Below are positions 1-18,622 of a stretch of 64,000 nucleotides of DNA, one piece after another. The notes below the pieces were generated by a model. The model saw only the letters and a list, made by a program, of their open reading frames with translations. It made no database searches and was not told the DNA's origin. The stretch's first letter is position 1; each line of letters begins with the position of its first letter. The DNA comes from Ostreococcus lucimarinus (lineage: Eukaryota), in NCBI GenBank assembly GCA_000092065.1, contig CP000590.1; one strand, written 5' to 3'. Made by a program: the position numbers and the translations under genes.

Positions 1-2755
1 GAGCCTGAGGGCGCATAACGAGGAAGCGATCGCGAAATATGCAAACTTTCCGGAGTTGGATAAGCCGGACGCGCACGTGGCGCGAGATGCGGATGGGTAC
101 TACGTCGTGAAGGAGGAGTGGCGAAAACCGACGAATCCCTTTGAAAAGTTGAAGCTCGCGAAGGATCCGATGCGAGAGTTGATCGGGATGAACGGGATCG
201 AGGAGATGGCCAAGGCGAGCGCGGCGGATTTCAAGGCTTGGGACGAGGCGTTGAATGACCCGGACGAGACCGATCAACGACCGAAGTGGGCGGGTTTGTT
301 TCATCGACGCAAAGGACACTACGGGCGATACATGATGCGACTCAAGCTTCCGAACGGACTCATTAACTCGACGCAGATGCGATATTTGGCGAGCGTGATT
401 AAAAAGTACGGCGAAGATGGGTGCTGCGACATCACGACGAGACAAAACATTCAGCTTCGTGGGGTTGAGTTGAAGGATGCGCCCGAAATCTTGCGCAAAC
501 TCGAAGAGCTCGGTATGTGCTCGTTGCAAAGCGGGTTGGACAACGTGCGCAACGCGACGGGGAACCCGCTCGCGGGTTTTGATCCGCAAGAAATCGTCGA
601 CACGCGACCTTACACGCTCGCCATTCAAGATTACGTCACCGGTGGTGGGCGCGGGAATCCAGCCATCGCTAACTTGGGGCGTAAGTGGAACGTGTGCGTC
701 GTCGGCAGCAGCGACTTTTTCGAGCATCCGGACATCAACGACTTGGCCTTCATTCCAGCGATGAAGGATGGCAAGTTCGGATTCAACATGATCGTCGGTG
801 GCTTCATATCTTCTCAGCGCGCAGCGGAGTCGGTCTCTCTCGATGCGTGGATCCCTGAGAACGAGCTTGTCGCCGCGACGCACGCCGTGTTGACGACGTT
901 TCGCGATTACGGCCATCGCGGCAACCGCCAAAAGTGCCGCATGATGTGGCTCATCGACGAGATGGGTTTGGAAACGTTTCGCACCGAAGTTGCGTCGCGC
1001 ATGCCAACGGGAGACTTGGCGCGCGGCGCCGAAGTGGATCTCATCGACCGAGAGTCTCCGCGACGCAGTTACATCGGCGTGCACGCGCAAAAGCAAGAGG
1101 GCTTGAGCTGGGTCGCCGCTGCCGTGCCGGGCGGACGTATGCAACCGGAAGATCTCGCGGAGATGGCTGATCTCGCGGACAAGTACGGCGAAGGTGAGAT
1201 TCGACTCACCGTCGAGCAAAACTTTATCATTCCCCACGTGCCGAACGATAAGATTGACGCCATTCTCCAAGAGCGTTTGTTTCAAGAGTACACGCCGTTC
1301 CCGGGCAAACTTGTGTCCAACATGGTGGCGTGCACCGGAAATCAGTTCTGCGGATTCGCGCAAATCGAGACGAAGCGACAAGCGCTCGAAATGGCGGAAC
1401 ACTTGGAAAGTTGCTTAGAACTTTCGAAGGACGTGCGCATGATTTGGACAGGTTGCCCGAACTCTTGCGCTCCGGTGCAAGTGGCGGACATTGGCCTCAT
1501 GGGCGCGCAGGTGAAGAATCCGACGGGCGAGAAGGGCATGGTACCAGGGGTGAACATCTTCATCGGTGGTACCGTCGGGCCGAACGGCCACTTGAAGGAA
1601 GCGCCAGAAATCGCAAAGGTCCCGTGCTCAGAGTTGAAGCCGGTTCTGGAACAGATTATGATTGAGAGGTTTGGCGCGACGCGCAAGGCGACGCCGACGC
1701 CGAATCCGGGGCGAGCGTCGCGCTGGAAAATCAACAAATCTGCGCAGTATACCAAGGGTGTCCCTAAAGCCATGGGTAAGGCGACGCACATTTGCACCGG
1801 ATGTGGTTACATTTATCAAGAGACGAAGAAGTTCGACGAGTTGCCGGATGACTACGTCTGTCCGTCGTGCAGCGCGCCGAAGTCCAAGTTTGAAGCGATG
1901 AAGCAGGAAGAGACGCCCACGAGCGCTCGCCCGGTCGTGGAGTACCCCGAAGGCACGCTCGCGACGCTGAAGAACGGCGAAACCGTTGAATTGAAGCTCG
2001 TTGAGAAGGAACAAGTGACGTCGAACACTGTACGCCTTCGATTTGAACTCCCGTCGCCGGAGCACATCCTCGGACTTCCCGTCGGGCAACACGTGACGGT
2101 GACCATCGACGGCGTGTCTCGTCCGTACACTCCGATCACGCGCGATGCGGACAAGGGTTTCATGGACCTTCTCGTGAAGATTTATGATCAAGGCGCGCTC
2201 ACGCAAAAGCTCAACGCCGTGGCCGTGGGATCTACCGTAGCGTTCGAAGGACCGAATGGGTTGGTGACGTACAGCGCTCGCGGCGAATTTTCTACGCGCA
2301 ATCCGGCGACGGGCTCTGTGGCGAAGAAATCATGCAAGAACATCGCCATGATCGCCGGTGGTACTGGCATCACCCCTATGCTTCAAGTCATTCGCCAAAT
2401 CTTCAACGATGTCGGGGACACGACGCGGGTCAACTTGTTATTCGCCAACGTCTCCTCGGCGGATATTCTCTTGAAGAAGGAGCTCGACGAGCTCGCGAGC
2501 GCGCACAAAAACTTGACGGTGCACTACGCGATCGACAAGGATGAACCAAACTGGAACGGCGAGGTTGGATACGTTTCAGAGGAAATGATCAAGAAGTGCG
2601 ACTTGCTGAAGCGAGGTGGCTTGATGGACAAATTGTTTTCATCCGCCGACGACACCGCGGTCCTCGTGTGCGGCCCGCCGGCGATGGTTGAGAAAGCCGT
2701 TGTGCCCGCGTTGGACGCACTGAATGTCTCTACAGATTCTCGAATTTTCTTTTAA
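1..2755 (+). CDS. NII: Nitrite reductase (siroheme/4Fe-4S, plant Fd-NiR type) fused C-terminally to a rubredoxin and a cytochrome-b5-reductase-type FAD/NAD(P)H domain; 5' end lies outside the window
   Basis: The frame is open from nt 2 with no stop before the TTG used by the ORF track, so the N-terminus/transit peptide is left of the window. It matches plant NiR block by block (RPKWAGLFHRRKGHYGRYMMRLKLPNG, TTRQNIQLRG, QSGLDNVRN, GNRQKCRMMWLIDE, cluster cysteines CTGNQFCG and TGCPNSC). About nt 1780-1900 encode a rubredoxin knuckle pair (CTGCGYIY...YVCPSC). About nt 1960-2752 encode an FNR-like module (RPYTPIT, GGTGITPM, CGPPAM, C-terminal IFF). Confidence 0.93.
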   Translation, partial: SLRAHNEEAIAKYANFPELDKPDAHVARDADGYYVVKEEWRKPTNPFEKLKLAKDPMRELIGMNGIEEMAKASAADFKAWDEALNDPDETDQRPKWAGLFHRRKGHYGRYMMRLKLPNGLINSTQMRYLASVIKKYGEDGCCDITTRQNIQLRGVELKDAPEILRKLEELGMCSLQSGLDNVRNATGNPLAGFDPQEIVDTRPYTLAIQDYVTGGGRGNPAIANLGRKWNVCVVGSSDFFEHPDINDLAFIPAMKDGKFGFNMIVGGFISSQRAAESVSLDAWIPENELVAATHAVLTTFRDYGHRGNRQKCRMMWLIDEMGLETFRTEVASRMPTGDLARGAEVDLIDRESPRRSYIGVHAQKQEGLSWVAAAVPGGRMQPEDLAEMADLADKYGEGEIRLTVEQNFIIPHVPNDKIDAILQERLFQEYTPFPGKLVSNMVACTGNQFCGFAQIETKRQALEMAEHLESCLELSKDVRMIWTGCPNSCAPVQVADIGLMGAQVKNPTGEKGMVPGVNIFIGGTVGPNGHLKEAPEIAKVPCSELKPVLEQIMIERFGATRKATPTPNPGRASRWKINKSAQYTKGVPKAMGKATHICTGCGYIYQETKKFDELPDDYVCPSCSAPKSKFEAMKQEETPTSARPVVEYPEGTLATLKNGETVELKLVEKEQVTSNTVRLRFELPSPEHILGLPVGQHVTVTIDGVSRPYTPITRDADKGFMDLLVKIYDQGALTQKLNAVAVGSTVAFEGPNGLVTYSARGEFSTRNPATGSVAKKSCKNIAMIAGGTGITPMLQVIRQIFNDVGDTTRVNLLFANVSSADILLKKELDELASAHKNLTVHYAIDKDEPNWNGEVGYVSEEMIKKCDLLKRGGLMDKLFSSADDTAVLVCGPPAMVEKAVVPALDALNVSTDSRIFF

Positions 2756-5958: not shown

Positions 5959-6019
5959 TTCTTTTTTACTCTCGCGTCGCAAGAGTGCATCGTTTATAAA
6001 AAATCACCTCTACGTAGTG

Positions 6020-6024
6020 TGTAA
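6020..6024 (+). terminator. TGTAA, candidate poly(A) signal of NRT2
   Basis: 62 nt after the stop. UGUAA is the known chlorophyte poly(A) signal. Confidence 0.35.
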
Positions 6025-6122
6025 CATAACTCTTATTGCAAACTCTCCACGAACAGCCGACGTCTGGGGCGACGCGCGAAATTGATCAACAAATTGTCTT
6101 CCTACAAATTCAACTCTACGCT

Positions 6123-7550: not shown

Positions 7551-7773
7551 CGCGCGAGGGCGTCGTGACCTTTCGCGTCCCGCGAAAAGCGCTTTTTCGC
7601 GTGGATGCTCGACCCGCGCGCGTCGCCGCGCGCGCGGATGCGCGAGGAACGCTCGAGGAGATCGTGTTTAACCCAACCCGTGCGCGTGCGCGTCGCGCGC
7701 GAGGCGTAAGCGTCGCGCGCGCTGACGTGTGTGGACGCGAAATGAGAACGTGGGGACGCGCGCGCGCGCGCGC

Positions 7774-7815
7774 GACGAAGACGAAGACGAAGACGAAGAC
7801 GAAGACGAAGACGAA
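7774..7815. repeat. (GACGAA)7 microsatellite
   Basis: Seven perfect tandem hexamers between the MOT1 start and the CNX2 stop. Confidence 0.95.
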
Positions 7816-7842
7816 GAGACGATGGAAATCTCGCGCAACAGG

Positions 7843-9078
7843 CTAACCCCCTATCTTGATCATCGCGCGATTATCCTGCGCCGCGAGCTCGTGCATGCCC
7901 GCGTGCGCGGCCTTCTTTCGCTTGACCGCAGCGCCGATGACGCGCAAAATGTCGTCGTCCGACGCGCCCGAGCGCATGGCGTCTCGCAAGCTCACCTCTG
8001 AATTGCCGAATAAACAAACCTTCAAATTACCGTCCGCCATGATGCGTAAGCGGTTACATCCGCCGCAGAATGAGTTCGTCATGCTCGTGATGAAGCTCAC
8101 CGAACCTTTGTGACCGGGCAGGGTGAAGTTCTTCGCGACTTCCTCGCGCGGGTCGTCGACGCGCGTCAACGCGCCGTACGCCTCTTCTATTCTCGCGCGC
8201 ATCTCGGCGTACGACACCATCTTCTTCGTGCTCCACTTATTGCCGTCGAACGGCATGTACTCTATAAATCTCACATTAATCGGCTTGTCTTTCGTCAACG
8301 CCACGAAATCAAGCAGCTCGTCGTCGTTTTGCCCGCGCATGACGACGCAGTTCACCTTGACGCTCTGAAATCCGAGTTCGCACGCCTTGTCGACGCTCGC
8401 CAGTACCCGATCGTGCCCTTTCCTCCGCGTCATGAACTCAAACTTCGCCGGCACGAGCGTATCAAGCGACACATTCAAACGCGTCAATCCGTTCGCTCTA
8501 AGCGCGTCTAACCGCTTCGCGAGCGTCACTCCGTTCGTCGTGACGCTCGTCTCGCGCACCCCCGGCGTCCCGCTCACCCGTCGCACCACGTCTTCCAAAT
8601 CTTTTCTCAGCGTCGGCTCACCCCCGGTGAGCCGCACTTTATCCACCCCAGCCGCGGCAAATATTTTAACCACCCTCCCGATCTCATCCGCGGTGAGCAA
8701 CTCATCCTTCGCCGTCAAATCCACGCCGTCCTCGGGCATGCAATACCCGCACCGCAGGTTGCACTTTTCCGTCAAGCTGATGCGCAGGTAATTATGCCCT
8801 CGCCCGAACGCATCCACGAGTTCCGGCGCGACGTTCGCCGTTCGCGACGTCATCGCGCGCGCGGCGACTCGCGGATCGATTCGCGCCCTCGCCCGCGCGC
8901 CCTCGCCCGCGCGCGTCGGTTCCTCCACCGCTCGCCGCGGTGCACTTTTTGTCCCGAGCGCGCTCACCGCGTCCTCGCGCGCGCGTTCGACGCCCTGATC
9001 GCCGCGCGCGATCGCCGCGAGCGTCGCGCTCGCGCGCCGCGCGCCCGGGCGCGTCCACGCGCCGCGCGCGAGCGACAT
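7843..9078 (-). CDS. CNX2: GTP 3',8-cyclase (MoaA/CNX2), first step of molybdenum cofactor synthesis
   Basis: Radical-SAM signature [22 protein letters not shown], then GGEPTLR, and the C-terminal cluster motif FCGGCNRLR. The ORF stays open to ATG 9324, but that extension is not MoaA-like and overlaps exon 1 of the opposite-strand gene, so I take ATG 9078. The start is uncertain. Confidence 0.88.
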
Positions 9079-9154
9079 CCTCTGACGTCGCTTCGCGTCG
9101 TTTCGCCCTGTCGACCGGACCGCACCGCGCGTCACTCCGTCGCGCGCGCTCGCG

Positions 9155-9937
9155 ATGTCGCGCGCGCTCGAGGACGACCACGGCTCGTTCGCCGTGATAG
9201 ATCTCGTCGCGCACCTGTACCGCGGCGGCGCGGAAGATCGAGGCGCGCTCGCGAAGATTTGGTCGCGGTACAGCGATGCGACGGTTTCAGAGCGGAAGAC
9301 GACAGGTTTCGAGATGGTGCGCATGCATCACGCGACGCTGACGAGGATGTTTCGAGACGGTGCGTGCGACACGCTCAATTTTCGCGAGCGCGACGCGCGT
9401 CGGGACCGAGGGCGCGCGGTCGAGGGACGGGACGCAAAACGGCGCGAGACGGGACGACGACGAGGACGGGCGAGCGGGACGCGACGGACCGACTGACGAC
9501 GACGACGCGTTCGAACGCGAAAAGACCCGGATGGGGATTACTTAGATATCGAAGACGTGCGCATGACGTGGGAAGAGTTCGTGGACGCGCTGAGAGACGC
9601 CACGGGGGCGTCGGCGGATGAACCGGCGTCGCCGGAGAACGCGAAGTCGTACGACGCGCTCGAACGACCGGTGATGCAAAGAAATCAATCGTTCTCGAAC
9701 TTGGCGAAGGATTTGGAGGAAGTCATCGCCGCCGCGCGCTCGCCCGGGACGAGCGCGGACAACACGCCCGAAGGTTCGACGCGTGGGATTCAGAGAATTT
9801 CATCCTCTGGGATGCTTTTGGGCATCGGCTGCTCGAGCCGCGAACCGTCGCTTCGAGGCGGCAACGCGTTTCACGCGGGCATGACCGTGCGCTCGGAAGA
9901 TTTGAAGAGTCGCCTCGAGAAGAACGCGACGCAGTGA
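9155..9937 (+). CDS. Hypothetical Ser/acidic-rich protein embedded in the nitrate/Moco cluster (2 exons: 9155-9359, 9525-9937)
   Basis: The donor GTGCGTGCG at 9360, ACTGAC at 9492-9497, and the first AG at 9523-9524 (alternative AG at 9544-9545) all give phase-1 in-frame junctions. Codon third positions are G/C-biased. I recognise no family. The exon 1 start could also be ATG 9314. Confidence 0.5.
9360..9524 (+). other. Intron of the hypothetical cluster gene (alternative acceptor at 9545)
   Basis: GTGCGTGCGAC donor and ACTGAC at 9492-9497. The first AG (9523-9524) and the next AG (9544-9545) are both phase-1 compatible with the downstream ORF. Confidence 0.6.
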
Positions 9938-10070
9938 TCGTTTCCGCGAAATGCGCCGCATCAATACGCGTAATACGTCAATATAATCTATTGTACCTCG
10001 CTCCCGCGCCGAAAAGCGCAGCCAAAAGTCGCTTCGCCCCACAAGTCGTCGGCGTCGACGCGCGCGCGTC

Positions 10071-11447
10071 ATGCCCGCCGAAACCGAAACCGCGCGCAAG
10101 TACCACATCGTCGGCGACTACGCCACCGCGCTGAACCCTCGAAACGACGCGCGAAGCGTGGAAAAATACGCGCGACACTTGGTGCTGCGTCCCCACGGCG
10201 CGCGCATCCAACGCGCGCTGTGCGCCGCGCGCGTCCTCGTCGTCGGCTGCGGTGGCCTCGGGTGCCCGTGCGCGATATATCTCGCCGCCTCGGGCGTGGG
10301 AACGCTCGGATTGTGCGACGCGGACGCGGTGGAGCTGAGCAACTTGCATCGACAGGTGGGACACTCGACGGCGGCGACCGGGACGTCGAAGGCGAAGTCG
10401 TTGGCGGCGCGGTGCGAGGGATTGAACGATGGCGTTCGAGTCGTGGTGCGAGAAACGTTCGCGACGACGGAAAATGTGATGGAACTTGTGGCGGGGTACG
10501 ACTTGGTGTGCGATTGTAGCGATAATCCGAGGACGAGGTATTTGTTGTCGGACGCGTGCGCGAGCGCGGAGATTCCGCTCGTGAGCGCGGCGTGCGTGGG
10601 ATTTGAAGGGCAGCTCACGGTGCTGTGTGGCACGCGAGCGTGGAATGATGACGATGAATCGTTTGGGGAGTTTGCGCCCGCACCGTGTTATCGATGTTTG
10701 TTTCCGACGCCGCCGGCGTCGGGAGACGCCGGGACGTGCGGGGCGTCTGGCGTGCTCGGACCGCTGCCTGGCATCGTGGGTACTTTTCAAGCGCTCGAGG
10801 CCATGAAAACGCTGGCTGGGGTAGGGGAGTCCATGCGAGGAAAAATGTTAACGTTCGACGCGTTGAGCGCGAGACCGACGATGACGTTGAACATGCGGGA
10901 ACAGCGAGACGCCGCGTGCGCGTGTTGCTCGACGTTGACGTCTCACGACGGACGCTTCGACGTCGCGACGTACGATTACGACGCTTTCTTATCGTCGACG
11001 CCGTGTCCGATGCGCGGAAGAAAAGCGAGACGCGGTGGCGTTGATGTGAACGCGCCGCCGAAGTTTGGGGCGCGAGAAATGCCGGAGCGCGGCGGCGGCG
11101 GCTGGCGACGCGTGGATGCGAAAGCGGCGACGACGTACGTCAAAGATGAGGGCGTCACCGTAGTCGACGTGCGTCCCAAGCACATGTACGACGCAGCGCA
11201 CATACCTGGATCTATTTCGTTACCAATAGAAACGCTCGACGTCGAGACGTGGAACGGCGCCGTGGGCGCGGCGGTTGAAGGATACCGTCTGTGCTTCGTG
11301 TGCGCGGGAGGCAACAACAGCCAAAGAGCGGCGCAATGGTTCGTGGACGCGAAAGTCGCCACCGCTGCCCCGGCGAGCGTCGTCGACGTTTGTGGCGGTC
11401 TCGCCGCGATGCGCGACGCGGGCTACGACGTCCCGAGACTCGATTGA
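10071..11447 (+). CDS. CNX5: Molybdopterin-synthase adenylyltransferase/sulfurtransferase (MoeB-ThiF fold plus rhodanese; CNX5/MOCS3/UBA4)
   Basis: Nucleotide-binding VLVVGCGGLGCPCAIYLAASGVG, SNLHRQV, a zinc-type cysteine pair (PCYRCLFP), and a C-terminal rhodanese-like domain (VVDVRP...FVCAGGNNSQRAAQW). Confidence 0.9.
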   Translation: MPAETETARKYHIVGDYATALNPRNDARSVEKYARHLVLRPHGARIQRALCAARVLVVGCGGLGCPCAIYLAASGVGTLGLCDADAVELSNLHRQVGHSTAATGTSKAKSLAARCEGLNDGVRVVVRETFATTENVMELVAGYDLVCDCSDNPRTRYLLSDACASAEIPLVSAACVGFEGQLTVLCGTRAWNDDDESFGEFAPAPCYRCLFPTPPASGDAGTCGASGVLGPLPGIVGTFQALEAMKTLAGVGESMRGKMLTFDALSARPTMTLNMREQRDAACACCSTLTSHDGRFDVATYDYDAFLSSTPCPMRGRKARRGGVDVNAPPKFGAREMPERGGGGWRRVDAKAATTYVKDEGVTVVDVRPKHMYDAAHIPGSISLPIETLDVETWNGAVGAAVEGYRLCFVCAGGNNSQRAAQWFVDAKVATAAPASVVDVCGGLAAMRDAGYDVPRLD

Positions 11448-11655
11448 TTAAAATTGTTTCAACGCGCGGCGAGCACTTTATTTCTACAACAACACGCCTA
11501 CGATTCCACGCGCGCTTGCACGATCTCCGGTCGTTCACCCTTGGATTCCGCGGTTTGCATCGTCGCGAGCGCCGCCTCGACGACGCCCTCGGTGAGTTCG
11601 CCGCTCGCGCTCATCGCGTCCACCACCTCCTGCGCCTCTTCGGGCGATTGCGAGT

Positions 11656-12339
11656 TCAGAACTTTGTAGTAATTCGAAAAGTCGCGGCGACGATCGCCCC
11701 ACCCACGATTCGCCGCCACCACCGTCCACGCCGCGGCTTCTCGCCCTTATCCGACGCGGCGTCGCGCGTCGAGAGCGCGACCTCCGCGACGACGTCCTCT
11801 TCCGACCGCCCCTGCGGGCATCCGTTCGCCTCGAGATATCGCAACACGCCCTCGCTCGCGCCGCCCGCGTACTTGACCCAAAAGTCTCTGTCTTTCGCCA
11901 ACCACGCCGGCACCGGCGACGCGCGCGTCGTCGTCTCGCGCTCCGTCTCCGCCTCCGTCTCCGCCTCCGCCTCCGCCTCCGCCTCCGCGTCGCCCTCGCG
12001 CGTCACCACCCCGATCTGAAAATCTCTCAGCTGCGTCCACGCCCGCGCGCTGTGAATCTCCTCGAACTCATCGCTCGCCTCTTTCCCGAGCGCCCGCGCG
12101 ATCGCCAGCGCCGTCGACACCTGCCCCGCGTTGTTGAATCCCGGGTGCGTCGTCGCGAACGCCGTGATGTCGAACACGCGCTCGCGCACCACGATCCATC
12201 CGTCCGCGAGGCGCGCGTGCGCCGCGACGTCCTCGCGCGTGTACTTTCGCCACCTCGCGCGCTCGTCGTCCGTCGGCGCGCGCCGGAGCGCGTCGACGAC
12301 GGCGAGGTCGACGGCGACGTCGCGCCCGGACGCGTGCAT
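11656..12339 (-). CDS. Stand-alone cytochrome b5-fold heme protein resembling the heme domain of nitrate reductase, with an acidic (E-A/E-T) repeat linker and an unknown C-terminal region
   Basis: From ATG 12339: YTREDVAAHARLADGWIVVRERVFDITAFATTHPGF...DEFEEIHSARAWTQLRDFQIGVV. Both heme-ligand histidines are present (HPG.. and ..IHS). The AIHS-like second motif and the layout (W-I-V-V-x-x-x-V-F-D-x-T-x-F) look like NR heme domains rather than the microsomal b5 motif VGHS. The inter-histidine loop is about 8 residues longer than usual. The 3' end is ambiguous (see finding on 11498-11722). Confidence 0.65.
   Translation of the reverse strand: MHASGRDVAVDLAVVDALRRAPTDDERARWRKYTREDVAAHARLADGWIVVRERVFDITAFATTHPGFNNAGQVSTALAIARALGKEASDEFEEIHSARAWTQLRDFQIGVVTREGDAEAEAEAEAETEAETERETTTRASPVPAWLAKDRDFWVKYAGGASEGVLRYLEANGCPQGRSEEDVVAEVALSTRDAASDKGEKPRRGRWWRRIVGGAIVAATFRITTKF
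11941..11987. repeat. GCCTCC/GTCTCC hexamer repeat (encodes the E-A/E-T acidic linker of the b5 protein on the minus strand)
   Basis: CTCCGTCTCCGCCTCCGTCTCCGCCTCCGCCTCCGCCTCCGCCTCCG; translated on the minus strand as AEAEAEAEAETEAETE. Confidence 0.9.
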
Positions 12340-12658
12340 CGTCGCGCCGTTCGAGCGCGGACGACCGGACGCGTCGTCGGCGGCGCGCGGACGCGCGGCC
12401 GCGCGCGCGCGGACGCGTCGCGCGTCGCGCGCGCGCGTCGCGCGTCGCGTCGTGGCGCGACGACGTCGACGGGCGCGAAGCGTCACTTTGGTAAAAAAGG
12501 AAAAAATGCGTATGGGCAAACAGTATGACGCTTCGGCGACGCTTGGAGATTCCGAAACGACTCGGTCGACGGCTGGCGTCGACGCGACGCGACGCGCACA
12601 ACGCGGCCCTCGCGCGGTCGACGCGGCGTCGCGAGACTCGAAGCGTCGTCGTCGAGTC
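12340..12658. promoter_or_regulatory. Shared divergent promoter region of the stand-alone b5 gene and NR
   Basis: 319 bp between ATG 12339 (minus strand) and ATG 12659 (plus strand). Mostly CG-rich, with one A-rich patch at about 12486-12520 (GGTAAAAAAGGAAAAAATGCGTATGGGCAAAC). Confidence 0.45.
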
Positions 12659-14324
12659 ATGGCGAACGCCGTCGTCGCGATCGTCGCCGCGGGCGCGGGC
12701 GCGTTCGCGGGCAAGCTGCTCGACGGGAAAAAGCGCGAGACGTCGCGAGGCGCGGACGACGCGGACGACGTCGACTTTAAGACGGACGCGAAGTCCAACG
12801 TCGATCACGCGGCGGCGGCGAAAAAGCATCAGTACCTGGCGCAGAAGTACCCGGAGGTGGACGAGCGAGACTTGAAGACGCCGGATAATTGGGTGAAGAG
12901 GCATCCGTGCGTGCGAGACGCGAGGCGACGCGAACGCGGGACGACGAGGACGCGGCGAACGACGACGGCGCGCGTGACTGACGGTGGTTTGCGTCGATCG
13001 TGGTGATAGGAATTTGATTCGTCTGACCGGGAAACACCCGTTTAACGTCGAGGCGTCGCTTCCGGAGTTGTATGATTACGGATTCATCTCGCCGGTGAAC
13101 TTGCACATCGTGCGGAATCACGGCGCGGTGCCGAAGTGCGATTGGGACACGCACAAGATTAACATTTGTGGCAACGTCCCGAAACCGTTCGAGATCGGTA
13201 TGGACGAGTTGGTGAAAATGCCGAGCGACACGTTCCCGTGCTTGGTGGTGTGCGCGGGGAACCGTCGGAAGGAACAAAACTTGGTCAAGTCGTCGATTGG
13301 GTTCTCGTGGGGGCCGTGCGCCATCGGAAACACGTACTGGACGGGCGTACCGCTGCGAGTGTTGCTCAACAGAGCGGGCATTCATAAGCCCGGTCCGGGT
13401 GCGCGATACGTGTGCTTGGCTGGTCCGCAAAACGAATTGCCGAAGGACTACCCCGATCAAGACGGTGGTCCGGGATCGTACGGCACATCCATCGACATGG
13501 AAACCGCGCTCGATCCGACGTGCGATGTCATTGTGGCGTACGAACAAAACGGTGCCAAGCTTCACCCAGACCATGGATTCCCAGTGCGGGTGATCATTCC
13601 CGGTTACATCGGTGGGCGCATGATAAAGTTTTTGAAGGAGATTAAAGTCACCGACAGAGAGTCAAACAACTTTTATCACTTCAACGATAACCGCGTGTTA
13701 CCGCCGCCAGTTGACGCTGAGCGCGCGACCGAGGAGGGATGGTGGTTCAAGCCCGAGTTCATCATCAACCAACTCAACATTAACGGTGCCATCGCGTACC
13801 CGGCGCCCGAAGAAGTCATTCCCAAGTCGCAAAAGACGTACGCCTTCAAAGGTTACGCCTACTCTGGCGGCGGTCGCAAGGTCATTCGCGCCGAGCTTTC
13901 CTTCGATCAAGGCTTGAGCTGGGAATTGAGTGATATTCACACTCGCGAAGAACCGCGATGGGCCGATTTCAGCTCCGGTGACAAGGCCAGGCACTGGTGC
14001 TGGTGCATGTGGACTCTCGAAGTGCCGATTGAGAAGCTCCTCGACAAAAAGTGCGTCGAAGTGTGCTTCCGCGCCGTCGATCAATCCATGAACAAAATGG
14101 ACGAGCGCCCGACGTGGAACGTCATGGGTATGTTGAACAACCCGTGGTACCGCGTCCGCATCCACCACACGCCCACGGGCGACGTTCGCGTGGAGCATCC
14201 GTGCATCGCCGGTCCGACCCCCGGCGGCTGGATGCAAAAGATGGCGGCTAAGGAACCCACCGGAGAACTTCTCTGGGGCTGGGGCGGCCAAGGCACGCCG
14301 GCCGCGCCCCCGAGAGAAGAATAA
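12659..14324 (+). CDS. NIA: Nitrate reductase, molybdopterin-binding and dimerisation domains only (2 exons: 12659-12906, 13010-14324); no heme or FAD domain in the ORF
   Basis: Exon 1 ends ...DERDLKTPDNWVKRHP. The phase-2 intron 12907-13009 has GTGCGTGCG...ACTGAC...ATAG. Exon 2 continues NLIRLTGKHPFNVE. NR-specific blocks are present (LVVCAGNRRKEQNLVKSSIGFSWG, GFPVRVIIPGYIGGRMIKFLKEI, NFYHFNDNRVLPPPVD, GYAYSGGGRKV, MGMLNNPWYRV, EHPCIAGPTPGGWMQKM). TAA lies at 14322-14324, followed by an AT-rich 3' region. An alternative start is ATG 12506. Confidence 0.9.
12907..13009 (+). other. Intron of nitrate reductase
   Basis: GTGCGTGCGAG donor, GTGACTGAC branch, GATAG acceptor. Phase 2, joining ...NWVKRHP to NLIRLTGKHPF (conserved NR motif). 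Confidence 0.9.
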
Positions 14325-14360
14325 ATTATTCGTGATGTTTTTCGATTTATTATGACCTCG

Positions 14361-14365
14361 TGTAA
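14361..14365 (+). terminator. TGTAA, candidate poly(A) signal of NR
   Basis: 37 nt after TAA 14322-14324, inside an AT-rich stretch. This supports a genuine 3' end of the NR transcript here. Confidence 0.4.
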
Positions 14366-14485
14366 GATTATCACCATCATTCCTTAAGTCTCTCTCTCTT
14401 CGCCGTCGACGCTCGGCGTCGACGCTCGCGCGCCTCACACGCAGCCTCGCGTCCGACTTCGCTTCATCCCACGACCGCGCGCGCG

Positions 14486-14767
14486 ATGGATCTCATATTC
14501 ATCCTCCGTCAATACATCGGCATCGTCCTCTCCATGGCCGCCTTCGCCGGCTTCGCCTTCTGCACCAAACTCGAGCGACGCTTCGACCTCGACCAAACCA
14601 AAATCATTCACGTCTCCGTCGGTCTCGCCGTCGTCGGCCTGCTGTTCCACGAACTGCGCCCGTACAAGCGACAGGCTGGATTGACGTTTAGCAAAGAGCA
14701 GGCCGAGGAGGAGTGGAAGGCGCGCGAGGAGGAGATCGCCGCGGCGAAGACGAAGAAGAAAAAGTAA
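14486..14767 (+). CDS. Hypothetical small membrane protein (two predicted TM helices, Lys/Glu-rich tail)
   Basis: ATG 14486, 93 codons. Hydrophobic segments IGIVLSMAAFAGFAF and VSVGLAVVGLLF, and G/C-biased third positions. No family recognised. The long overlapping minus-strand ORFs look like composition artefacts. Confidence 0.4.
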   Translation: MDLIFILRQYIGIVLSMAAFAGFAFCTKLERRFDLDQTKIIHVSVGLAVVGLLFHELRPYKRQAGLTFSKEQAEEEWKAREEEIAAAKTKKKK

Positions 14768-14987
14768 CTTTTCGACGGCGCGCGCGGGACGCGTCGAGTT
14801 CGCCGCTCGAGCGGCGCGGCGCGGCGTCGCGACGCGCGTAGGTTGTAATTCGATTAGCGTCGCGCTCGCGCGCCGCGCGTCCGTCCGCGTCGTCGTCGAC
14901 GGCGTCCGCGAGGCTTCGGGCGCGACGTCGACCCCGCGCCAAGGGACACGAAGAGGCGCGAGGAGACGGCACTCCGCGCCGCGACGC

Positions 14988-16781
14988 ATGGGATGCGCCG
15001 CGTCCTCCGCGAGCGCGTCCGCGCCCGCGAGCGCGCTCGCGCTCGTCGACTTCAACGCGCGATTCGCGGACGAGTACGTCGTGCGGGAGAAAATCGGCGT
15101 CGGACAGCAAGGGACGGTGTACCTGTGCGAGGACGCGGAGACCGGGACGACGCGCGCGATGAAGGAGACGCACATCGGGGTGTTCGGCGCGAACGCGAAG
15201 CGACGAGAGGCGTACTGCGAGATTGAATTGCTGTCGCAGATGCGACATCCGAACGTGGTGAGGATGGTGAAGGCGTACCAGACGAGCGCGGAGGTGCAGG
15301 TGGTCATGGAACACGCCGGGCGAGACACGTTGTTGACGTACCTCGTCGCTCTGGACGACGCCGAGGGGATGACGGAGGAAGAAAAGATGCACATTAAACA
15401 TGAATTGATTCGGCAGTTGGTGGACGCGGTCGCGCACGTGCACTCGAGGGATGTGGTGTTTCGGGATTTGAAGCACGAAAACGTCATGGTCACGAGCGAC
15501 GACGATTTGAGAAACGCGCAGATTAAGCTCGTTGATTTCGGTCGCGCGGCGTCGCTGCGCCGGGAAGATCGACTGAATAATCAGCCACCTCTCGGGACGT
15601 CGTTATTTCAAGCGCCCGAAGTAGAAGAGCGTCGAGAGTATGGACAAGCGGCGGATATGTGGGCCGTCGGCGTCTTCGTTTACTTTTTAGTCACGGGGCA
15701 GATGCCGTTCGAGCACACCGTGGCGGGGCTTTACAAGGTGCTGCGAGGAGAATATGAACCCATGGAAGAGTCAATAAATAAGCACGCGCGCAATTTGGTG
15801 GCTAAGCTTCTCGTGCTCGACCCGGCGAAACGAATCAACGCTGCTCAAGCGAGCACGCATCGATTCTTGCGGCAGAGAAACGCCGCGCACGTGCACGTCG
15901 GCGAGGGCGACGCGCTCAGAGTGCCGAAACACATGGAAAAAGCGGCAAAGAGACAACTCCGAGCGCTCGTGATGCAGGACAGTCTGGAGCTGCACACGGT
16001 GGGATTGCTCGCGGAGAAGCTCACGCCCGAGGATTTGAAGACGCTTCGGCGTTGGTTACGCATGAAGGCGGAAATGTCTGTGCGCGGAGGAGTGGCGAAC
16101 GCGCGCGAAAAAAATGCATCTCATAGTATCTCTCAGCGACAGTCTCCGGATGCTTCAATCCGAGCGGGTCACACGTACACCGACGAACTCCAGGCACACG
16201 TGGCGCTCAACGCGTTGTACAATGAAATGACGAAGGATCAAGGGAGTGAGTCCAACAGTAGAGAAGTGAGCTTCCATGGCGGCGCACTTACGAAAACGCA
16301 GTCGTACCAGAAGCTCACGGAAGCACTGGAAAATTTAGAAGAAATGAGTTCTGGTGACGAAGCCGATGTGCACAGGCCGTCTCCGCCAAAGAAGATTAGC
16401 AAAAGCTCGCTGAGCGACGCCGCGCGGCAAGAGTCCGCACAAAAGACTACTGGCACGAGTGATATCGCTACAAGCCGCAGTTTCGTCGGCTACGCGCATC
16501 AGAGCGGAATGTGTACGGTGGATGAGCTCATCACTGCTTGCATTAGCGCTGGCCTTCAATCCGTGGCGGACGAGTTGCAAACCGTTCGCGACGATTTGAA
16601 AAAAGAACGCTTGGCGAAGCTCGCGGCGACGGGCGCGGATACGCAGACGCAGAACGAGAGCGTCCTTCTCGACATCATGCTCTTCAGATACGAAGACTTA
16701 CTTGCGAAGGTCGAGAACGCGCACTTAGACCAAGTAAAGGACTGGTCAGTTCGAGCGGGAGTGATGGAGAACGGGCTGTAG
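14988..16781 (+). CDS. Ser/Thr protein kinase (CaMK/CDPK-like catalytic domain, no EF hands seen), N-terminal MGC acylation motif
   Basis: MGCAAS start (myristoylation/palmitoylation consensus). Kinase subdomains are IGVGQQGTV, RAMKE, FRDLKHENVMV, DFGRA and FQAPE. The C-terminal half matches no recognised domain. Confidence 0.85.
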   Translation: MGCAASSASASAPASALALVDFNARFADEYVVREKIGVGQQGTVYLCEDAETGTTRAMKETHIGVFGANAKRREAYCEIELLSQMRHPNVVRMVKAYQTSAEVQVVMEHAGRDTLLTYLVALDDAEGMTEEEKMHIKHELIRQLVDAVAHVHSRDVVFRDLKHENVMVTSDDDLRNAQIKLVDFGRAASLRREDRLNNQPPLGTSLFQAPEVEERREYGQAADMWAVGVFVYFLVTGQMPFEHTVAGLYKVLRGEYEPMEESINKHARNLVAKLLVLDPAKRINAAQASTHRFLRQRNAAHVHVGEGDALRVPKHMEKAAKRQLRALVMQDSLELHTVGLLAEKLTPEDLKTLRRWLRMKAEMSVRGGVANAREKNASHSISQRQSPDASIRAGHTYTDELQAHVALNALYNEMTKDQGSESNSREVSFHGGALTKTQSYQKLTEALENLEEMSSGDEADVHRPSPPKKISKSSLSDAARQESAQKTTGTSDIATSRSFVGYAHQSGMCTVDELITACISAGLQSVADELQTVRDDLKKERLAKLAATGADTQTQNESVLLDIMLFRYEDLLAKVENAHLDQVKDWSVRAGVMENGL

Positions 16782-16885
16782 TTAATATGTATGATTTCGA
16801 AATGAATCACAACACGACGAAGCTAAGCGCTAACACTCTTTTTTGTTTTTTCGATGTTTTTGCTTTGTAATGTACTCTCACGCTC

Positions 16886-18622
16886 TCACATGTAGCGCGG
16901 CCCGTACGCCGACGGCGAGTTTGGATCCATGCGCGCTCCCCATTGGAACTCCGTCATCAGACAGACGTGGTCACTCGACCACTGCGTATTGGGTAAACCA
17001 CCATACTTGGCGCGAACCTCGCGCTCACCGGGAAGTTCAAGTAAACTCACCGGCGCGAGGGCGTCTTCGGTATAGAAGACGTAATCCAGCGCACCGTTGA
17101 AGTCTTTGGTGCAATTGGTGAACAACGGCTCGCCGATGACGTCCACACGGTCGCGCTGGCGCTCCAGCGCCTCTGAATCCAAACATGGTTTATGCAAGTT
17201 AGTGTACGCCGACACGAGCGGAAGCGGGTGCGATAACTTCGTAGACGGTTGCAAGATTCCAAAAGGATCGATGCCAAGTTCTGGGTGGTCCGCGGGAACG
17301 CGACCGTTCGACAGGAGCGAGTGCGCCGCCGATCCTGGAACCGAGTTGAAATCTCCGCACACCACCATGGGAATTTCCGCAGACGTCGCAATCTTTTCCA
17401 AACCCTTGAGCAACGTGTGAACCTGCCATAACTTAACGTCGTTGTGCTCGGTGTTGGCATGAATGTGCGTATTCGCCACGCATAGCAACTGCCGTTTCCC
17501 TTGCAACAGTTGCTGGTCCACGTCCAACGCCTCGAGGACGACGATGAGAGCGATGTTATCCTTCATCAACCGGTTTAGCGCATCCTTCTTCTGCGTCGCT
17601 CCGCCGAGAGACTCGACCAGACTCAGCGCAGCCTTATTGAATTCTACCTCGTACTTCTTAATCAACGCAAACTTGTCCTTCTTGAAGAAGATGGCGCAGC
17701 CGTCGATGACAAATTTCCCTTCACTGAACACTTGCGCCGTCTTCTTCTTGTAAACTGAAGCGTAACCGTACTTGGCCATTTCACCTTGAAAAAAGTCCTC
17801 GTAGTGGTCGGATTGCACTTCCTGCAAGCAAAGAATATCTGCATTGTAGTTGACAATCTCCTTCAAGATGTTCTGTCGGCGGTACGCCCACGCCAACGCC
17901 CAGTCGGGGACGTACCCGTACATGTCGCTGTTACAGTATAGATCAGCAAGCACGTTGTACGTCGCCACCGTGAAAGTGCGAGGTTCTGGAGTGCTATTGT
18001 GCGAAATCTTCACCAAATTCCTTCTCGGTGGCTCCGGCGCTGGAATCACTCTGCCGGTTATCACATTTTGCGGCTGCGCTTGCTCGTTCCCACTCTTCGC
18101 GTCCACGGGTACGACTTCCAACTTCAACACGTGCCCGACGTCATCCGCGCTCACCGTATAGTTCCTCGTCTGACAAACTTCAATCCAAGGCTCCACTCGT
18201 TTCTTCTCATCGGGTTTGTCCTCTGCCCGCTCCGCCTTTGCCGCCTTCCATCCATCGACGTCATCCTTCGGAGACGCTCGATCCGCCTTGGTCGGGAATG
18301 GCTCCCCATTCGCGATCCGGTTACGATTCCACTCTCGCCACGCGTGCTTGAAGCATTCGGAATCGCAGTGATACGTGCGCGTCGCTATATTCAGAAGCGT
18401 AGCCTGTTCCGCCGGGTGCACCGAGCACACGTTCATTTTCGTCTTCTTCCCCGACCGAAACCATCGATACCGCACGTAACTCCCCTCGTGCGCGTTCTCC
18501 TTACCGATATCCTCCGTCGTCGACGTCCCATCGCTCTTACGCGTCACGATATACGGCGCGAGCTCCACGCCGACGATGGGCGTGTCGGTGTTCAGCGTCG
18601 CCCTCGTCACGGTCAAACTCAT
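16886..18622 (-). CDS. CCR4: CCR4-type deadenylase (endonuclease/exonuclease/phosphatase family)
   Basis: EEP domain: FTVATYNVLADLYCNSDMYGYVPDWALAWAYRRQNILKEIVNYNADILCLQEVQ, ...VANTHI..., CGDFNS, SDHVCLM. ATG at 18622. Confidence 0.85.
   Translation of the reverse strand: MSLTVTRATLNTDTPIVGVELAPYIVTRKSDGTSTTEDIGKENAHEGSYVRYRWFRSGKKTKMNVCSVHPAEQATLLNIATRTYHCDSECFKHAWREWNRNRIANGEPFPTKADRASPKDDVDGWKAAKAERAEDKPDEKKRVEPWIEVCQTRNYTVSADDVGHVLKLEVVPVDAKSGNEQAQPQNVITGRVIPAPEPPRRNLVKISHNSTPEPRTFTVATYNVLADLYCNSDMYGYVPDWALAWAYRRQNILKEIVNYNADILCLQEVQSDHYEDFFQGEMAKYGYASVYKKKTAQVFSEGKFVIDGCAIFFKKDKFALIKKYEVEFNKAALSLVESLGGATQKKDALNRLMKDNIALIVVLEALDVDQQLLQGKRQLLCVANTHIHANTEHNDVKLWQVHTLLKGLEKIATSAEIPMVVCGDFNSVPGSAAHSLLSNGRVPADHPELGIDPFGILQPSTKLSHPLPLVSAYTNLHKPCLDSEALERQRDRVDVIGEPLFTNCTKDFNGALDYVFYTEDALAPVSLLELPGEREVRAKYGGLPNTQWSSDHVCLMTEFQWGARMDPNSPSAYGPRYM

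What the first reader, a model, noticed from the sequence alone, without database searches (positions are those of the whole stretch)
12659..14324. Nitrate reductase ORF terminates at hinge 1: a Moco-only NR
The ORF matches plant NR through the dimerisation domain up to EHPCIAGPTPGGWMQKM, the position where hinge 1 normally leads into the heme domain. A short Gly/Pro-rich tail follows, and then TAA at 14322-14324. Downstream comes an AT-rich stretch with TGTAA at 14361-14365. No b5-like or FNR-like ORF exists in any frame before the kinase gene at 14988. Near the stop there is no GTGCG donor or ACTGAC branch that could splice around it.
Basis: partly seen in the sequence, partly recalled or inferred. 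Interest (0 to 1): 0.8.

Follow-up and report, generated by a model that had tools for sequence, protein, structure and literature searches.

The report
Stand-alone molybdenum-only nitrate reductase paralogue
This picoalga (Ostreococcus lucimarinus) carries a normal nitrate reductase just outside the window and also a second, conserved and expressed nitrate-reductase-type gene inside it that encodes only the molybdenum catalytic half, sits head-to-head with its own cytochrome b5 gene, and probably receives its electrons from a separate protein.

Summary
A two-exon gene (12659-12906, 13010-14324) encodes a 520-aa protein with only the molybdopterin and dimerisation domains of eukaryotic nitrate reductase (NR), and it stops at TAA 14322-14324. 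The stop is not an artefact. It recurs in 99%-identical metagenome contigs, in syntenic orthologues, in two transcriptome-derived ORFs (one recorded as complete) and across Mamiellales, Pseudoscourfieldia and probably Pyramimonas.

The interpretation needs correcting, because this is not the organism's NR cut short. Contigs 99.5% identical to the window place an intact full-length NR about 0.9 kb left of window position 1, in the same nitrate-assimilation cluster.

The Moco-only gene is an old paralogue (NJ bootstrap 94%), sister to a full-length Prasinococcus NR. It keeps all 12 NR catalytic and Moco-site residues I checked and is more conserved than the canonical NR. It is paired head-to-head with a lineage-specific cytochrome b5 gene that is probably tail-anchored.

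In Pseudoscourfieldia the neighbouring full-length NR has lost its Mo-ligand cysteine, while the Moco-only gene is intact.

Best reading: a stand-alone nitrate- or nitrite-reducing subunit supplied with electrons in trans. I found no paper describing it. Function is inferred, not shown.

The parts
12659..12906 (+). Exon 1 of the Moco-only NR paralogue (aa 1-83, last codon split). It includes an N-terminal Ala/Val/Gly-rich hydrophobic stretch, aa 3-21.
   Evidence: The start matches the orthologue N-termini MANVAV.../MVANIA.... Kyte-Doolittle mean is 1.66 over 19 aa, and similar in the other Mamiellales members.
12907..13009 (+). Intron, 103 nt (GTGCGT donor, TGACTGAC branch-like motif, AG acceptor)
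   Evidence: The junction is confirmed by the identical NCBI protein XP_001419925.1. The orthologue P0002 has no intron and reads straight through.
13010..14324 (+). Exon 2, ending in TAA at 14322-14324
   Evidence: The same 446-aa ORF is called in L011.
13119..13676 (+). Molybdopterin-binding domain (aa 120-305), with Mo-ligand Cys164 and the NR-type substrate residues
   Evidence: Pfam PF00174, E 9e-52. The best PDB match is the Pichia NR fragment 2bih at 350 bits, against about 216 bits for sulfite oxidase. R118, C164, R168, R169, W183 and N310 are conserved.
13761..14168 (+). Moco-oxidoreductase dimerisation domain (aa 334-469), containing the NR-type WNVMGM motif
   Evidence: Pfam PF03404, E 8e-44. 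M457 and N453 are conserved.
14262..14309 (+). Conserved C-terminal tail motif GELLWGWGGQGTPAAP (aa 501-516)
   Evidence: The motif is present in the Moco-only members listed except the Pyramimonas transcript. It is also present in hinge 1 of the full-length Prasinococcus NR P0028. The AF2 model gives it pLDDT below 50, so it is flexible or unresolved.
11656..12339 (-). Divergently transcribed cytochrome b5 family gene (227 aa), the proposed electron donor
   Evidence: Pfam Cyt-b5, E 1.5e-11. Both heme-ligand His positions align to b5 structures. The family-specific invariant motif is HPGFxNxGQVSTAxAIxRxLG. The same head-to-head pairing occurs in L004, L011 and M. pusilla L014, and the gene is two genes away in L009.
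12340..12658 (.). Intergenic region of 319 bp shared by the b5 and Moco-only genes (putative bidirectional promoter)
   Evidence: Coordinates. GC is 0.71 with an A-rich island at about 12490-12510. Promoter function is inferred from the arrangement and was not tested.
11517..11681 (.). 165-bp insertion relative to three near-identical contigs. It changes the last residues of the b5 protein (…AATFRITTKF* instead of …AASARGIVGVLL*).
14486..14767 (+). Conserved 93-aa ORF with two hydrophobic segments, syntenic with the Moco-only gene
   Evidence: tblastn hits in L004, L005-7, L011 and M. pusilla L014. No Pfam or NCBIfam match.
14988..16781 (+). Ser/Thr protein kinase (N-terminus MGCAAS), an orthologous neighbour of the Moco-only gene in three genera
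   Evidence: Pfam Pkinase. It is 43-61% identical to the neighbouring kinase in L004, L005, L009 and L014, against 27% to a paralogous kinase.
1..2755 (+). Nitrite reductase fused to rubredoxin and a cytochrome-b5-reductase-like FAD/NAD module (module at about 1946-2752). The gene starts about 208 bp left of the window.
   Evidence: Pfam. L011 gene 4559-7522 maps here. The C-terminal module scores 205 bits to NADH-cytochrome b5 reductase 3 and 139 bits to the NR FAD fragment. The fusion is known as NIRFU (PMC5344333).
4525..11447 (.). Rest of the nitrate/molybdenum cluster: NRT2-like MFS 4525-5958(+), MOT1 6123-7550(-), CNX2 7843-9324(-), CNX5 10071-11447(+)
   Evidence: Pfam. The order matches the published O. 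tauri cluster NAR1-NIA1-NII1-Cytb5R-NAR2-NRT2-MOT1-CNX2-CNX5 (PMC4620153).

Best explanation
The gene encodes a stand-alone catalytic subunit of the eukaryotic nitrate reductase type, made of the Moco domain and the dimerisation domain only. It is an ancient, selectively maintained paralogue of the canonical NR, found in Mamiellales and Pseudoscourfieldia and probably in Pyramimonas (an MMETSP transcript).

It binds Moco through Cys164, dimerises, and reduces nitrate to nitrite (or possibly nitrite to NO) at an unchanged NR active site. It has no heme or flavin domain of its own, so electrons must arrive in trans.

The most likely donor is the cytochrome b5 encoded head-to-head with it. That b5 would in turn be reduced by an NAD(P)H-dependent cytochrome-b5-reductase-type flavoprotein. 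The logic would then be a three-component chain, NAD(P)H -> FAD -> b5 -> Mo, assembled from separate polypeptides, probably at a membrane surface.

Shown: gene structure, domain content, conservation of the stop, transcript-derived ORFs, active-site conservation, phylogeny and synteny.

Inferred: Moco binding, substrate, electron donor and localisation.
For: **Architecture and reality of the stop:**

**NR-type rather than sulfite-oxidase-type:**
- The best PDB sequence match is the nitrate-reducing fragment of Pichia NR, at 350 bits against about 216 for sulfite oxidase.
- The best fold match is also that fragment, 2bih, E 1.6e-42.
- All 12 NR catalytic and Moco-site residues I selected for checking are present in the window protein and all ten other Moco-only members compared. 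They include the Mo-ligand Cys, the two Arg, Trp, the Asn of DNR and the M-G-M motif. The Asn and Met positions are the ones changed in the chicken sulfite oxidase 'altered substrate' mutants 3r18 and 3r19.

**Selection:**
- The clade is monophyletic (94%) and its internal branching follows the taxa.
- Ostreococcus and Bathycoccus are 79% identical for the Moco-only protein and 64.5% for the canonical NR. Ostreococcus and Pseudoscourfieldia are 66% and 33%.

**Electron supply in trans:**
- The b5 gene is head-to-head with the Moco-only gene in Ostreococcus species (window, L004, L011) and in M. pusilla CCMP1545 (L014). It is two genes away in the Bathycoccus-like L009.
- The b5 family is prasinophyte-restricted among the 100 hits at E<=1e-5 and has invariant family-specific motifs.
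- The cluster also encodes a module most similar to NADH-cytochrome b5 reductase.
- In Pseudoscourfieldia/Pycnococcus the adjacent full-length NR keeps b5, FAD and NAD but has lost the Mo-ligand Cys and eight other active-site residues. That loss is conserved in orthologues at 65-75% identity, while the neighbouring Moco-only gene is intact. There, a separate Moco-only polypeptide is the only intact NR active site seen in the locus.

**Established knowledge (my recollection, not tested here):** recombinant Moco/dimer fragments of NR, such as the one crystallised as 2bih, reduce nitrate when given an artificial electron donor.
Against: - There is no biochemical or genetic evidence of any kind here.
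- The same genome has an intact canonical NR 0.9 kb outside the window, so the need for a second nitrate-reducing site is unexplained.
- The b5 family also occurs in Chloropicon, where no Moco-only homologue appeared among the 120 hits listed and the b5 gene is not near nitrate genes.
- In Micromonas-like loci L001-L003 and L008 no b5 gene is adjacent.
- In this very window a 165-bp insertion removes the hydrophobic C-terminal tail of the b5 protein.
- The b5-reductase-like module is fused to nitrite reductase, which is reported to carry a plastid transit peptide (PMC5344333). That may be the wrong compartment.
- The N-terminal hydrophobic stretch is only borderline for a membrane helix and is absent outside Mamiellales.
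- The AF2 model is mediocre (mean pLDDT 67) and says nothing about either terminus.
Confidence: 0.55

Rival explanations
1. Heterodimer partner of the canonical NR. The Moco-only protein uses its dimerisation domain to pair with the full-length NR and borrows that subunit's b5/FAD/NADH arm, or else modulates it. On this reading the adjacent b5 gene is not the main donor.
For: The dimerisation domain is retained and scores strongly. The two genes are adjacent in the Bathycoccus-like L009 and in Pseudoscourfieldia L010, and close in M. pusilla L014 and O. lucimarinus L011. In Pseudoscourfieldiales the full-length protein has a dead Moco domain but conserved dimerisation, b5 and FAD/NAD parts. 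That is what a dedicated electron-donor subunit would look like. The Chattonella NR3 paper proposes similar complementation between NR isoforms (PMC6128913).
Against: The paralogues are only about 51% identical over Moco plus dimer in the same species. The conserved b5 pairing and the N-terminal hydrophobic stretch are left unexplained. No interaction data exist. This rival is compatible with the main explanation, since both are electron supply in trans, and it may be the true mechanism in Pseudoscourfieldia.
Confidence: 0.25
2. Same enzyme, different reaction. It mainly reduces nitrite to nitric oxide (or works in an NO/nitrate cycle) rather than serving nitrate assimilation, in analogy to NO formation by NR and the sulfite oxidase family.
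For: A canonical NR already covers assimilation. A globin gene lies directly downstream of the Moco-only gene in the Micromonas-like locus L008. Globin-NR coupling is known from the raphidophyte NR2-2/2HbN (PMC6128913). Reviews report nitrite-to-NO reduction by Mo enzymes of this family (PMC4620153).
Against: The active site cannot be told apart from assimilatory NR at the 12 positions checked, so sequence does not separate the two substrates. The globin neighbour was seen in one locus only.
Confidence: 0.15
3. Plant-type sulfite oxidase. That enzyme also consists of Moco plus dimerisation domains only, and oxidises sulfite with O2 as acceptor.
For: The two-domain architecture is the same. Bacterial sulfite dehydrogenase models give weak, sub-threshold hits.
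Against: The protein scores 350 bits to NR and 194 bits to plant sulfite oxidase 1ogp. It sits inside the NR tree. It has Asn310 and Met455/Met457 where sulfite oxidases have Tyr and Arg; those are the positions engineered in 3r18/3r19. The C-terminus is ...PPREE, with no peroxisomal SKL-type signal. The gene lies in the nitrate cluster.
Confidence: 0.03
4. Artefact or decaying pseudogene: a sequencing or assembly error, a strain-specific nonsense mutation, or an NR remnant.
For: None was found. The NCBI record annotates only a partial 375-aa model.
Against: The same stop occurs in independent assemblies and species. Transcript ORFs end there too, one of them recorded as complete. The family shows strong conservation and short branches across prasinophyte lineages.
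Confidence: 0.01

Closest known systems
Canonical eukaryotic assimilatory nitrate reductase (NIA1/EUKNR: Moco - dimerisation - cytochrome b5 - FAD - NAD(P)H)
   Same: Homologous Moco and dimerisation domains, 50-62% identical. The 12 NR catalytic and Moco-site residues checked are identical. The protein branches inside the NR tree. The gene lies in the nitrate-assimilation cluster.
   Different: It lacks hinge 1 onward: no cytochrome b5, FAD or NAD(P)H domain. It has a conserved WGWGG tail and, in Mamiellales, a hydrophobic N-terminus. It coexists with a canonical NR in the same cluster.
Recombinant nitrate-reducing Moco fragment of Pichia angusta NR (PDB 2bih/2bii)
   Same: It covers the same two domains as the natural protein here, and is the best sequence and fold match.
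   Different: That fragment is a laboratory truncation of a full-length enzyme. Here the truncated form is a natural, conserved gene product.
Chattonella subsalsa NR3 (heme-less NR; PMC6128913)
   Same: A natural NR paralogue that has lost a canonical redox domain and coexists with another NR. Its authors also invoke complementation in trans.
   Different: NR3 lacks only the b5 domain and keeps FAD/NADH. The prasinophyte protein lacks all three. They come from different lineages (a raphidophyte and green algae).
Plant sulfite oxidase (PDB 1ogp)
   Same: The Moco plus dimerisation architecture with no heme domain.
   Different: Lower similarity (194 bits against 350). It has sulfite-type active-site residues, peroxisomal targeting, and uses O2 as acceptor rather than needing an electron donor.
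mARC / cytochrome b5 / NADH-cytochrome b5 reductase three-component system
   Same: The proposed logic is the same: a Mo enzyme with no redox partner domains, fed by a separate, membrane-anchored b5 and a b5 reductase. In Chlamydomonas, mARC also reduces nitrite to NO (PMC10385300).
   Different: mARC has a MOSC-type Moco domain unrelated to the sulfite oxidase/NR fold. The partnership proposed here rests only on gene neighbourhood.
Ichthyosporean chimeric NR (CS-pNR) and raphidophyte NR2-2/2HbN
   Same: Further examples showing that the NR electron-input modules can be exchanged while the Moco module is kept (PMC6400420; PMC6128913).
   Different: Those remain single fused polypeptides. Here the input modules are absent from the polypeptide.

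Membership tests
Eukaryotic assimilatory nitrate reductase (EUKNR) | Sulfite-oxidase-fold Moco domain with the Mo-ligand Cys and the nitrate-type residues (two Arg, Trp, the Asn of DNR, the Met of WNxMGM) | tested here: met
   All 12 positions I selected for checking are conserved. The best PDB match is the NR fragment 2bih.
Eukaryotic assimilatory nitrate reductase (EUKNR) | Dimerisation domain (PF03404) | tested here: met
   aa 334-469, E 8e-44.
Eukaryotic assimilatory nitrate reductase (EUKNR) | Cytochrome b5 heme domain in the same polypeptide | tested here: not met
   No PF00173. No b5-like sequence lies between the stop and the next gene. Transcript ORFs end at the same stop.
Eukaryotic assimilatory nitrate reductase (EUKNR) | FAD and NAD(P)H domains in the same polypeptide | tested here: not met
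   No PF00970 or PF00175. tblastn is negative downstream.
Eukaryotic assimilatory nitrate reductase (EUKNR) | Phylogenetic placement among NR Moco domains | tested here: met
   In the NJ tree the Moco-only clade is sister to the full-length Prasinococcus NR (98.5%), among green-algal NRs. No sulfite oxidase outgroup was included; similarity scores supply that comparison.
Eukaryotic assimilatory nitrate reductase (EUKNR) | NAD(P)H-dependent nitrate reduction | not testable with these tools
   This needs an enzyme assay.
Plant-type sulfite oxidase | Moco plus dimerisation domains only | tested here: met
Plant-type sulfite oxidase | Sulfite-type active-site residues (Tyr and Arg at the positions that are Asn and Met in NR) | tested here: not met
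   FNDNRV and WNVMGM are present. They align with the engineered positions of the chicken sulfite oxidase mutants 3r18 and 3r19.
Plant-type sulfite oxidase | C-terminal peroxisomal targeting signal | tested here: not met
   The protein ends ...GTPAAPPREE.
Three-component Mo reductase of the mARC type | MOSC-type Moco domain | tested here: not met
   The only Pfam hits are PF00174 and PF03404.
Three-component Mo reductase of the mARC type | Separate cytochrome b5 and b5 reductase as obligatory electron donors | tested here: inconclusive
   The b5 gene is head-to-head in Ostreococcus and M. pusilla, and a b5-reductase-like module is in the cluster. No interaction or activity data exist.
Heme-less NR of the Chattonella NR3 type | Moco, dimerisation, FAD and NADH domains, lacking only b5 | tested here: not met
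   FAD and NAD domains are absent. The NR3 architecture is described in PMC6128913.

The most novel reading that the evidence does not exclude
Several prasinophyte lineages run a 'split' nitrate reductase. A free Moco/dimerisation subunit, conserved since before Mamiellales and Pseudoscourfieldiales diverged, is reduced in trans, either by a dedicated membrane-anchored cytochrome b5 (with a b5-reductase-type flavoprotein) or by the b5/FAD arm of a full-length NR. In Pseudoscourfieldia/Pycnococcus this has gone to completion: the full-length 'NR' is a catalytically dead electron-donor scaffold and the Moco-only protein is the only nitrate-reducing site. That would be the first natural multi-subunit eukaryotic assimilatory NR. 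It would also be a molecular candidate for a membrane-associated nitrate/nitrite reductase in abundant marine picoalgae.
Probability: 0.35. Interest if true: 0.8.

Novelty: new variant of a known kind. Interest (0 to 1): 0.62.

Why it matters
Eukaryotic assimilatory NR is a textbook single-chain, three-cofactor enzyme. [quoted passage not shown]

A naturally free, strongly conserved NR catalytic module with its own b5 neighbour shows that the electron-input half can be detached in nature. It also gives a natural system for asking how b5 docks to the Mo domain, and whether electron transfer can run between subunits.

The organisms concerned (Ostreococcus, Micromonas, Bathycoccus) are abundant marine primary producers; one Micromonas-type orthologue alone is indexed in 217 blocks of the public assembly collection. 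Nitrate-use and NR marker studies that count 'one NR' per genome overlook this second gene, and automatic annotation misnames it as 'predicted protein, partial', 'Nitrate reductase [NADH]' or 'DMSO/TMAO reductase YedYZ'.

Gene targeting by homologous recombination is, to my recollection, available in Ostreococcus tauri, so the hypothesis could be tested directly.

Tried and rejected
**Literature.** I found the NiR fusion (NIRFU), the published cluster order, and Chattonella NR3. I found no description of a Moco-only prasinophyte NR. A search for guessed O. tauri locus tags (ostta10g0098-0103) returned nothing. The O. tauri genome paper was requested by a PMC id I recalled, and that id was not held.

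**Truncation of the only NR.** Rejected, because the canonical NR lies just outside the window.

**Gene fission with the lost b5 surviving as the neighbouring gene.** Not supported either way. The neighbour is about 35-38% identical to NR b5 domains, which is ordinary for b5 proteins. Its closest solved relatives are microsomal and outer-mitochondrial b5.

**Lost FAD domain moved to nitrite reductase.** Not supported. That module is closer to NADH-cytochrome b5 reductase 3 than to the NR FAD domain.

**Sulfite oxidase.** Rejected on active-site residues and similarity scores.

**Structure prediction.** The AF2 run had only 23 aligned sequences and gave a mediocre model (mean pLDDT 67). It confirmed the fold but was uninformative for the N-terminal stretch and the WGWGG tail.

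**NCBIfam.** It gave only sub-threshold bacterial sulfite dehydrogenase hits.

**Phylogeny.** My first bootstrap script timed out. The tree reported is neighbour-joining with 200 replicates, not maximum likelihood, and deep nodes are unresolved (24-34%).
Full report
**1. What is in the sequence**

An ATG at 12659 opens a 248-nt exon. A 103-nt intron (12907-13009) starts with GTGCGT, contains TGACTGAC and ends in AG. A second exon runs from 13010 to TAA at 14322-14324.

The spliced product is 520 aa. The junction (…NWVKRHP|NLIRLTGKHPF…) is the one used in the NCBI model XP_001419925.1, 'predicted protein, partial [Ostreococcus lucimarinus CCE9901]'. Its 375 residues are identical to the window protein, which also identifies the organism.

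Pfam finds only the molybdopterin-binding domain (aa 120-305) and the Moco dimerisation domain (aa 334-469). tblastn with three full-length NRs finds no b5-like or FAD-like sequence between the stop and the kinase gene at 14988, even at E<=10. No GTGCG donor or CTGAC/CTAAC branch motif lies near the stop.

**2. The stop is genuine**

- Three marine metagenome contigs (L011-L013) are 99.2-99.7% identical to window 1-16161 and carry the same 446-aa exon-2 ORF.
- Syntenic orthologues from two other Ostreococcus lineages (87% and 84% identity) end at the same place. The same 90-97 aa ORF and kinase follow them.
- MMETSP transcriptome ORFs from Ostreococcus (523 aa, labelled complete) and Micromonas pusilla (521 aa) also end there. 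The M. pusilla transcript lacks the intron that is read through in genomic gene calls.
- The roughly 20 closest database homologues (63-87% identity) all have only the two domains. They include Pseudoscourfieldia marina and a Pyramimonas transcript. Full-length NRs begin at about 60% identity and below.

**3. It is not the organism's only NR**

L011-L013 extend 4.7 kb to the left of the window. They show NAR1, then a 939-967 aa NR with all five Pfam domains, ending about 877 bp before window position 1, then the nitrite reductase whose 3' part opens the window. That NR has every catalytic residue I checked.

The gene order is NAR1 - NR - NiR(+b5R-like) - NAR2 - NRT2 - MOT1 - CNX2 - CNX5. This equals the published O. 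tauri cluster (PMC4620153). The b5 gene and the Moco-only gene then extend it.

A Bathycoccus-like contig (L009), M. pusilla CCMP1545 (L014) and Pseudoscourfieldia marina (L010) likewise carry both a full-length NR and the Moco-only gene within a few kb.

The finding is therefore a second, distinct gene, not a truncated NIA1.

**4. What kind of protein it is**

Its best solved relative is the nitrate-reducing fragment of Pichia angusta NR. The sequence score is 350 bits, against about 216 for animal and 194 for plant sulfite oxidase. The Foldseek E-value is 1.6e-42, from a mediocre AF2 model with mean pLDDT 67.

I selected 12 NR catalytic and Moco-site positions and checked them in the window protein and ten other Moco-only sequences. 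All 12 are present in all eleven. They include the Mo-ligand Cys164, Arg118, Arg168/169, Trp183, Asn310 and the M-G-M motif at 455-457. Asn310 and the Met residues are the positions that separate NR from sulfite oxidase; they align with the engineered residues of the chicken sulfite oxidase 'altered substrate' mutants 3r18 and 3r19.

In a neighbour-joining tree of the Moco plus dimer region (200 bootstraps):
- the Moco-only proteins form one clade (94%) whose internal branching follows the taxa;
- that clade is sister to the full-length NR of Prasinococcus (98.5%);
- the canonical Mamiellales NRs form a separate, longer-branched clade (100%);
- deeper nodes are unresolved.

The Moco-only protein is the better conserved of the two. 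Identity between Ostreococcus and Bathycoccus is 79% for the Moco-only protein and 64.5% for the canonical NR. Between Ostreococcus and Pseudoscourfieldia it is 66% and 33%.

The 'short Gly/Pro tail' is a conserved motif, GELLWGWGGxGxPAAP. The Prasinococcus NR has it too, in hinge 1, followed by its b5 and FAD domains. This suggests the family descends from a full-length NR that lost everything after that motif.

**5. Neighbourhood**

Directly upstream, on the other strand and 319 bp away start-to-start, is a 227-aa cytochrome b5 family gene (11656-12339).

The same head-to-head pair occurs in two other Ostreococcus lineages and in M. pusilla CCMP1545. In the Bathycoccus-like contig the b5 gene is two genes away.

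The b5 protein belongs to a family found only in prasinophyte-type sequences among the 100 hits at E<=1e-5. It has an invariant HPGFxNxGQVSTAxAIxRxLG segment between the heme ligands, a second conserved motif (PxWL…FW…YL…PQ), and in most Mamiellales a basic-hydrophobic C-terminal tail.

An orthologous Ser/Thr kinase (N-terminus MGCAAS) and a small ORF with two hydrophobic segments travel with the pair in Ostreococcus and M. pusilla. The kinase is also next to the gene in the Bathycoccus-like contig.

At the other end of the cluster, nitrite reductase is fused to a rubredoxin and a FAD/NAD module. This is the known NIRFU fusion (PMC5344333). Here that module is closer to NADH-cytochrome b5 reductase 3 (205 bits) than to the NR flavin domain (139 bits).

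**6. A natural experiment**

In Pseudoscourfieldia/Pycnococcus the full-length 'nitrate reductase' next to the Moco-only gene has Ser in place of the Mo-ligand Cys. Eight other active-site residues are also changed: NRR->LRG, FVRNHG->FFHHHS, PDHGFP->PDLGAP, WNxMGM->WNFLGL. Its b5 and FAD/NAD domains are intact.

The same substitutions are kept in environmental orthologues that are 65-75% identical over more than 1000 aa. The Moco-only protein there is intact.

The simplest reading is that, in that lineage, catalysis sits on the Moco-only polypeptide and electrons come from another polypeptide. I did not scan the whole genome for a further intact NR, so this remains an inference.

**7. Mechanism**

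The best-supported explanation (about 0.55) is a stand-alone NR-type catalytic subunit that dimerises, binds Moco, and reduces nitrate (or nitrite) with electrons delivered in trans. The most probable donor is the co-located b5, with a b5-reductase-type flavoprotein behind it.

The main rival (about 0.25) is heterodimerisation with the canonical NR, borrowing its b5/FAD arm. It shares the in-trans principle and may be what happens in Pseudoscourfieldia.

A nitrite-to-NO role (about 0.15) cannot be told apart by sequence. A globin gene follows the Moco-only gene in one Micromonas-like locus.

Sulfite oxidase (0.03) and artefact or pseudogene (0.01) are effectively excluded.

The weak points are these:
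- there are no biochemical data;
- an intact canonical NR exists in the same genome;
- the b5 family also occurs in Chloropicon, with no Moco-only partner seen among the listed hits;
- some Micromonas loci have no adjacent b5 gene;
- the NiR-fused reductase is reported to carry a plastid transit peptide;
- in this very strain a 165-bp insertion (11517-11681) removes the b5 protein's hydrophobic tail.

**8. Relation to what is known**

The protein works like, and is homologous to, the Moco half of eukaryotic NR. It fails two defining features of that family as an enzyme architecture, the heme and flavin domains. I therefore file it as an NR-derived variant, not a canonical member.

Its closest precedents are:
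- the laboratory Moco fragment of Pichia NR;
- Chattonella NR3, which lacks only the heme domain (PMC6128913);
- plant sulfite oxidase, which has the same two-domain layout but different chemistry;
- the mARC/b5/b5-reductase system, by analogy only.

Reviews and comparative papers count one NR per Mamiellales genome and do not mention this gene. The origin-of-NR study does not discuss it. All ten literature searches found no description.

The sequences themselves are public, though poorly named. The novelty lies in recognising the family, its b5 pairing and the Pseudoscourfieldia case, not in new sequence.

**9. Verdict**

Novelty: a new variant of a known kind. Interest is about 0.6. The finding is surprising for NR specialists and can be tested directly in Ostreococcus, but its function is still inferred.

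Noticed in passing
window 11517-11681: A 165-bp insertion is absent from three otherwise 99.5%-identical metagenome contigs. It lies in the last codons of the b5 gene and replaces the hydrophobic C-terminal tail (…AASARGIVGVLL) with …AATFRITTKF. It occurs only once in the window, and one frame reads as a clean peptide (…SPEEAQEVVDAMSASGELTEGVVEAALATMQTAESKGERPEIV).
   Followed up: partly
L010 12964-16098 (Pseudoscourfieldia marina CP150406.1); proteins P0300-P0302: The full-length 'nitrate reductase' has a conserved but apparently dead Moco domain (Mo-ligand Cys->Ser plus eight other active-site changes) with intact b5, FAD and NAD domains. The changes are kept in orthologues at 65-75% identity, and an intact Moco-only gene sits next to it.
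   Followed up: partly
window 1-2755, module at about 1946-2752: Nitrite reductase is fused to rubredoxin and a FAD/NAD module (the known NIRFU fusion). The module is more similar to NADH-cytochrome b5 reductase 3 (205 bits) than to the NR flavin fragment (139 bits).
   Followed up: partly
L008 11888-12304: A 138-aa globin gene lies immediately downstream of the Moco-only gene in a Micromonas-like contig. It recalls the NR-hemoglobin couplings tied to NO metabolism.
   Followed up: no
window 14486-14767 and 14988-16781: A 93-aa ORF with two hydrophobic segments and a Ser/Thr kinase starting MGCAAS (an acylation-like N-terminus) stay next to the Moco-only gene in Ostreococcus and M. pusilla. 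The kinase also does so in the Bathycoccus-like contig. They may be part of the same functional module.
   Followed up: partly
L014 1-3157 (Micromonas pusilla CCMP1545 GG663738.1): The 1114-aa full-length NR gives two separate b5-like tblastn hits (132-383 and 978-1229), suggesting a duplicated heme domain. An RWP-RK/NLP-type regulator lies at 14694-18407 in the same locus.
   Followed up: no
homologue list (e.g. P0032, P0035, P0039, P0051, P0058): Many environmental NR homologues of 730-755 aa have Moco, dimer, FAD and NAD domains but no cytochrome b5 Pfam hit. That is the Chattonella NR3 architecture, so heme-less NRs appear to be widespread.
   Followed up: no
window 12340-14485: GC content changes sharply: 0.71 in the b5/Moco intergenic region, 0.65-0.69 in exon 1 and the intron, and 0.575 in exon 2. 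The same alternation of GC-rich spacers and less GC-rich coding sequence runs across the window.
   Followed up: no
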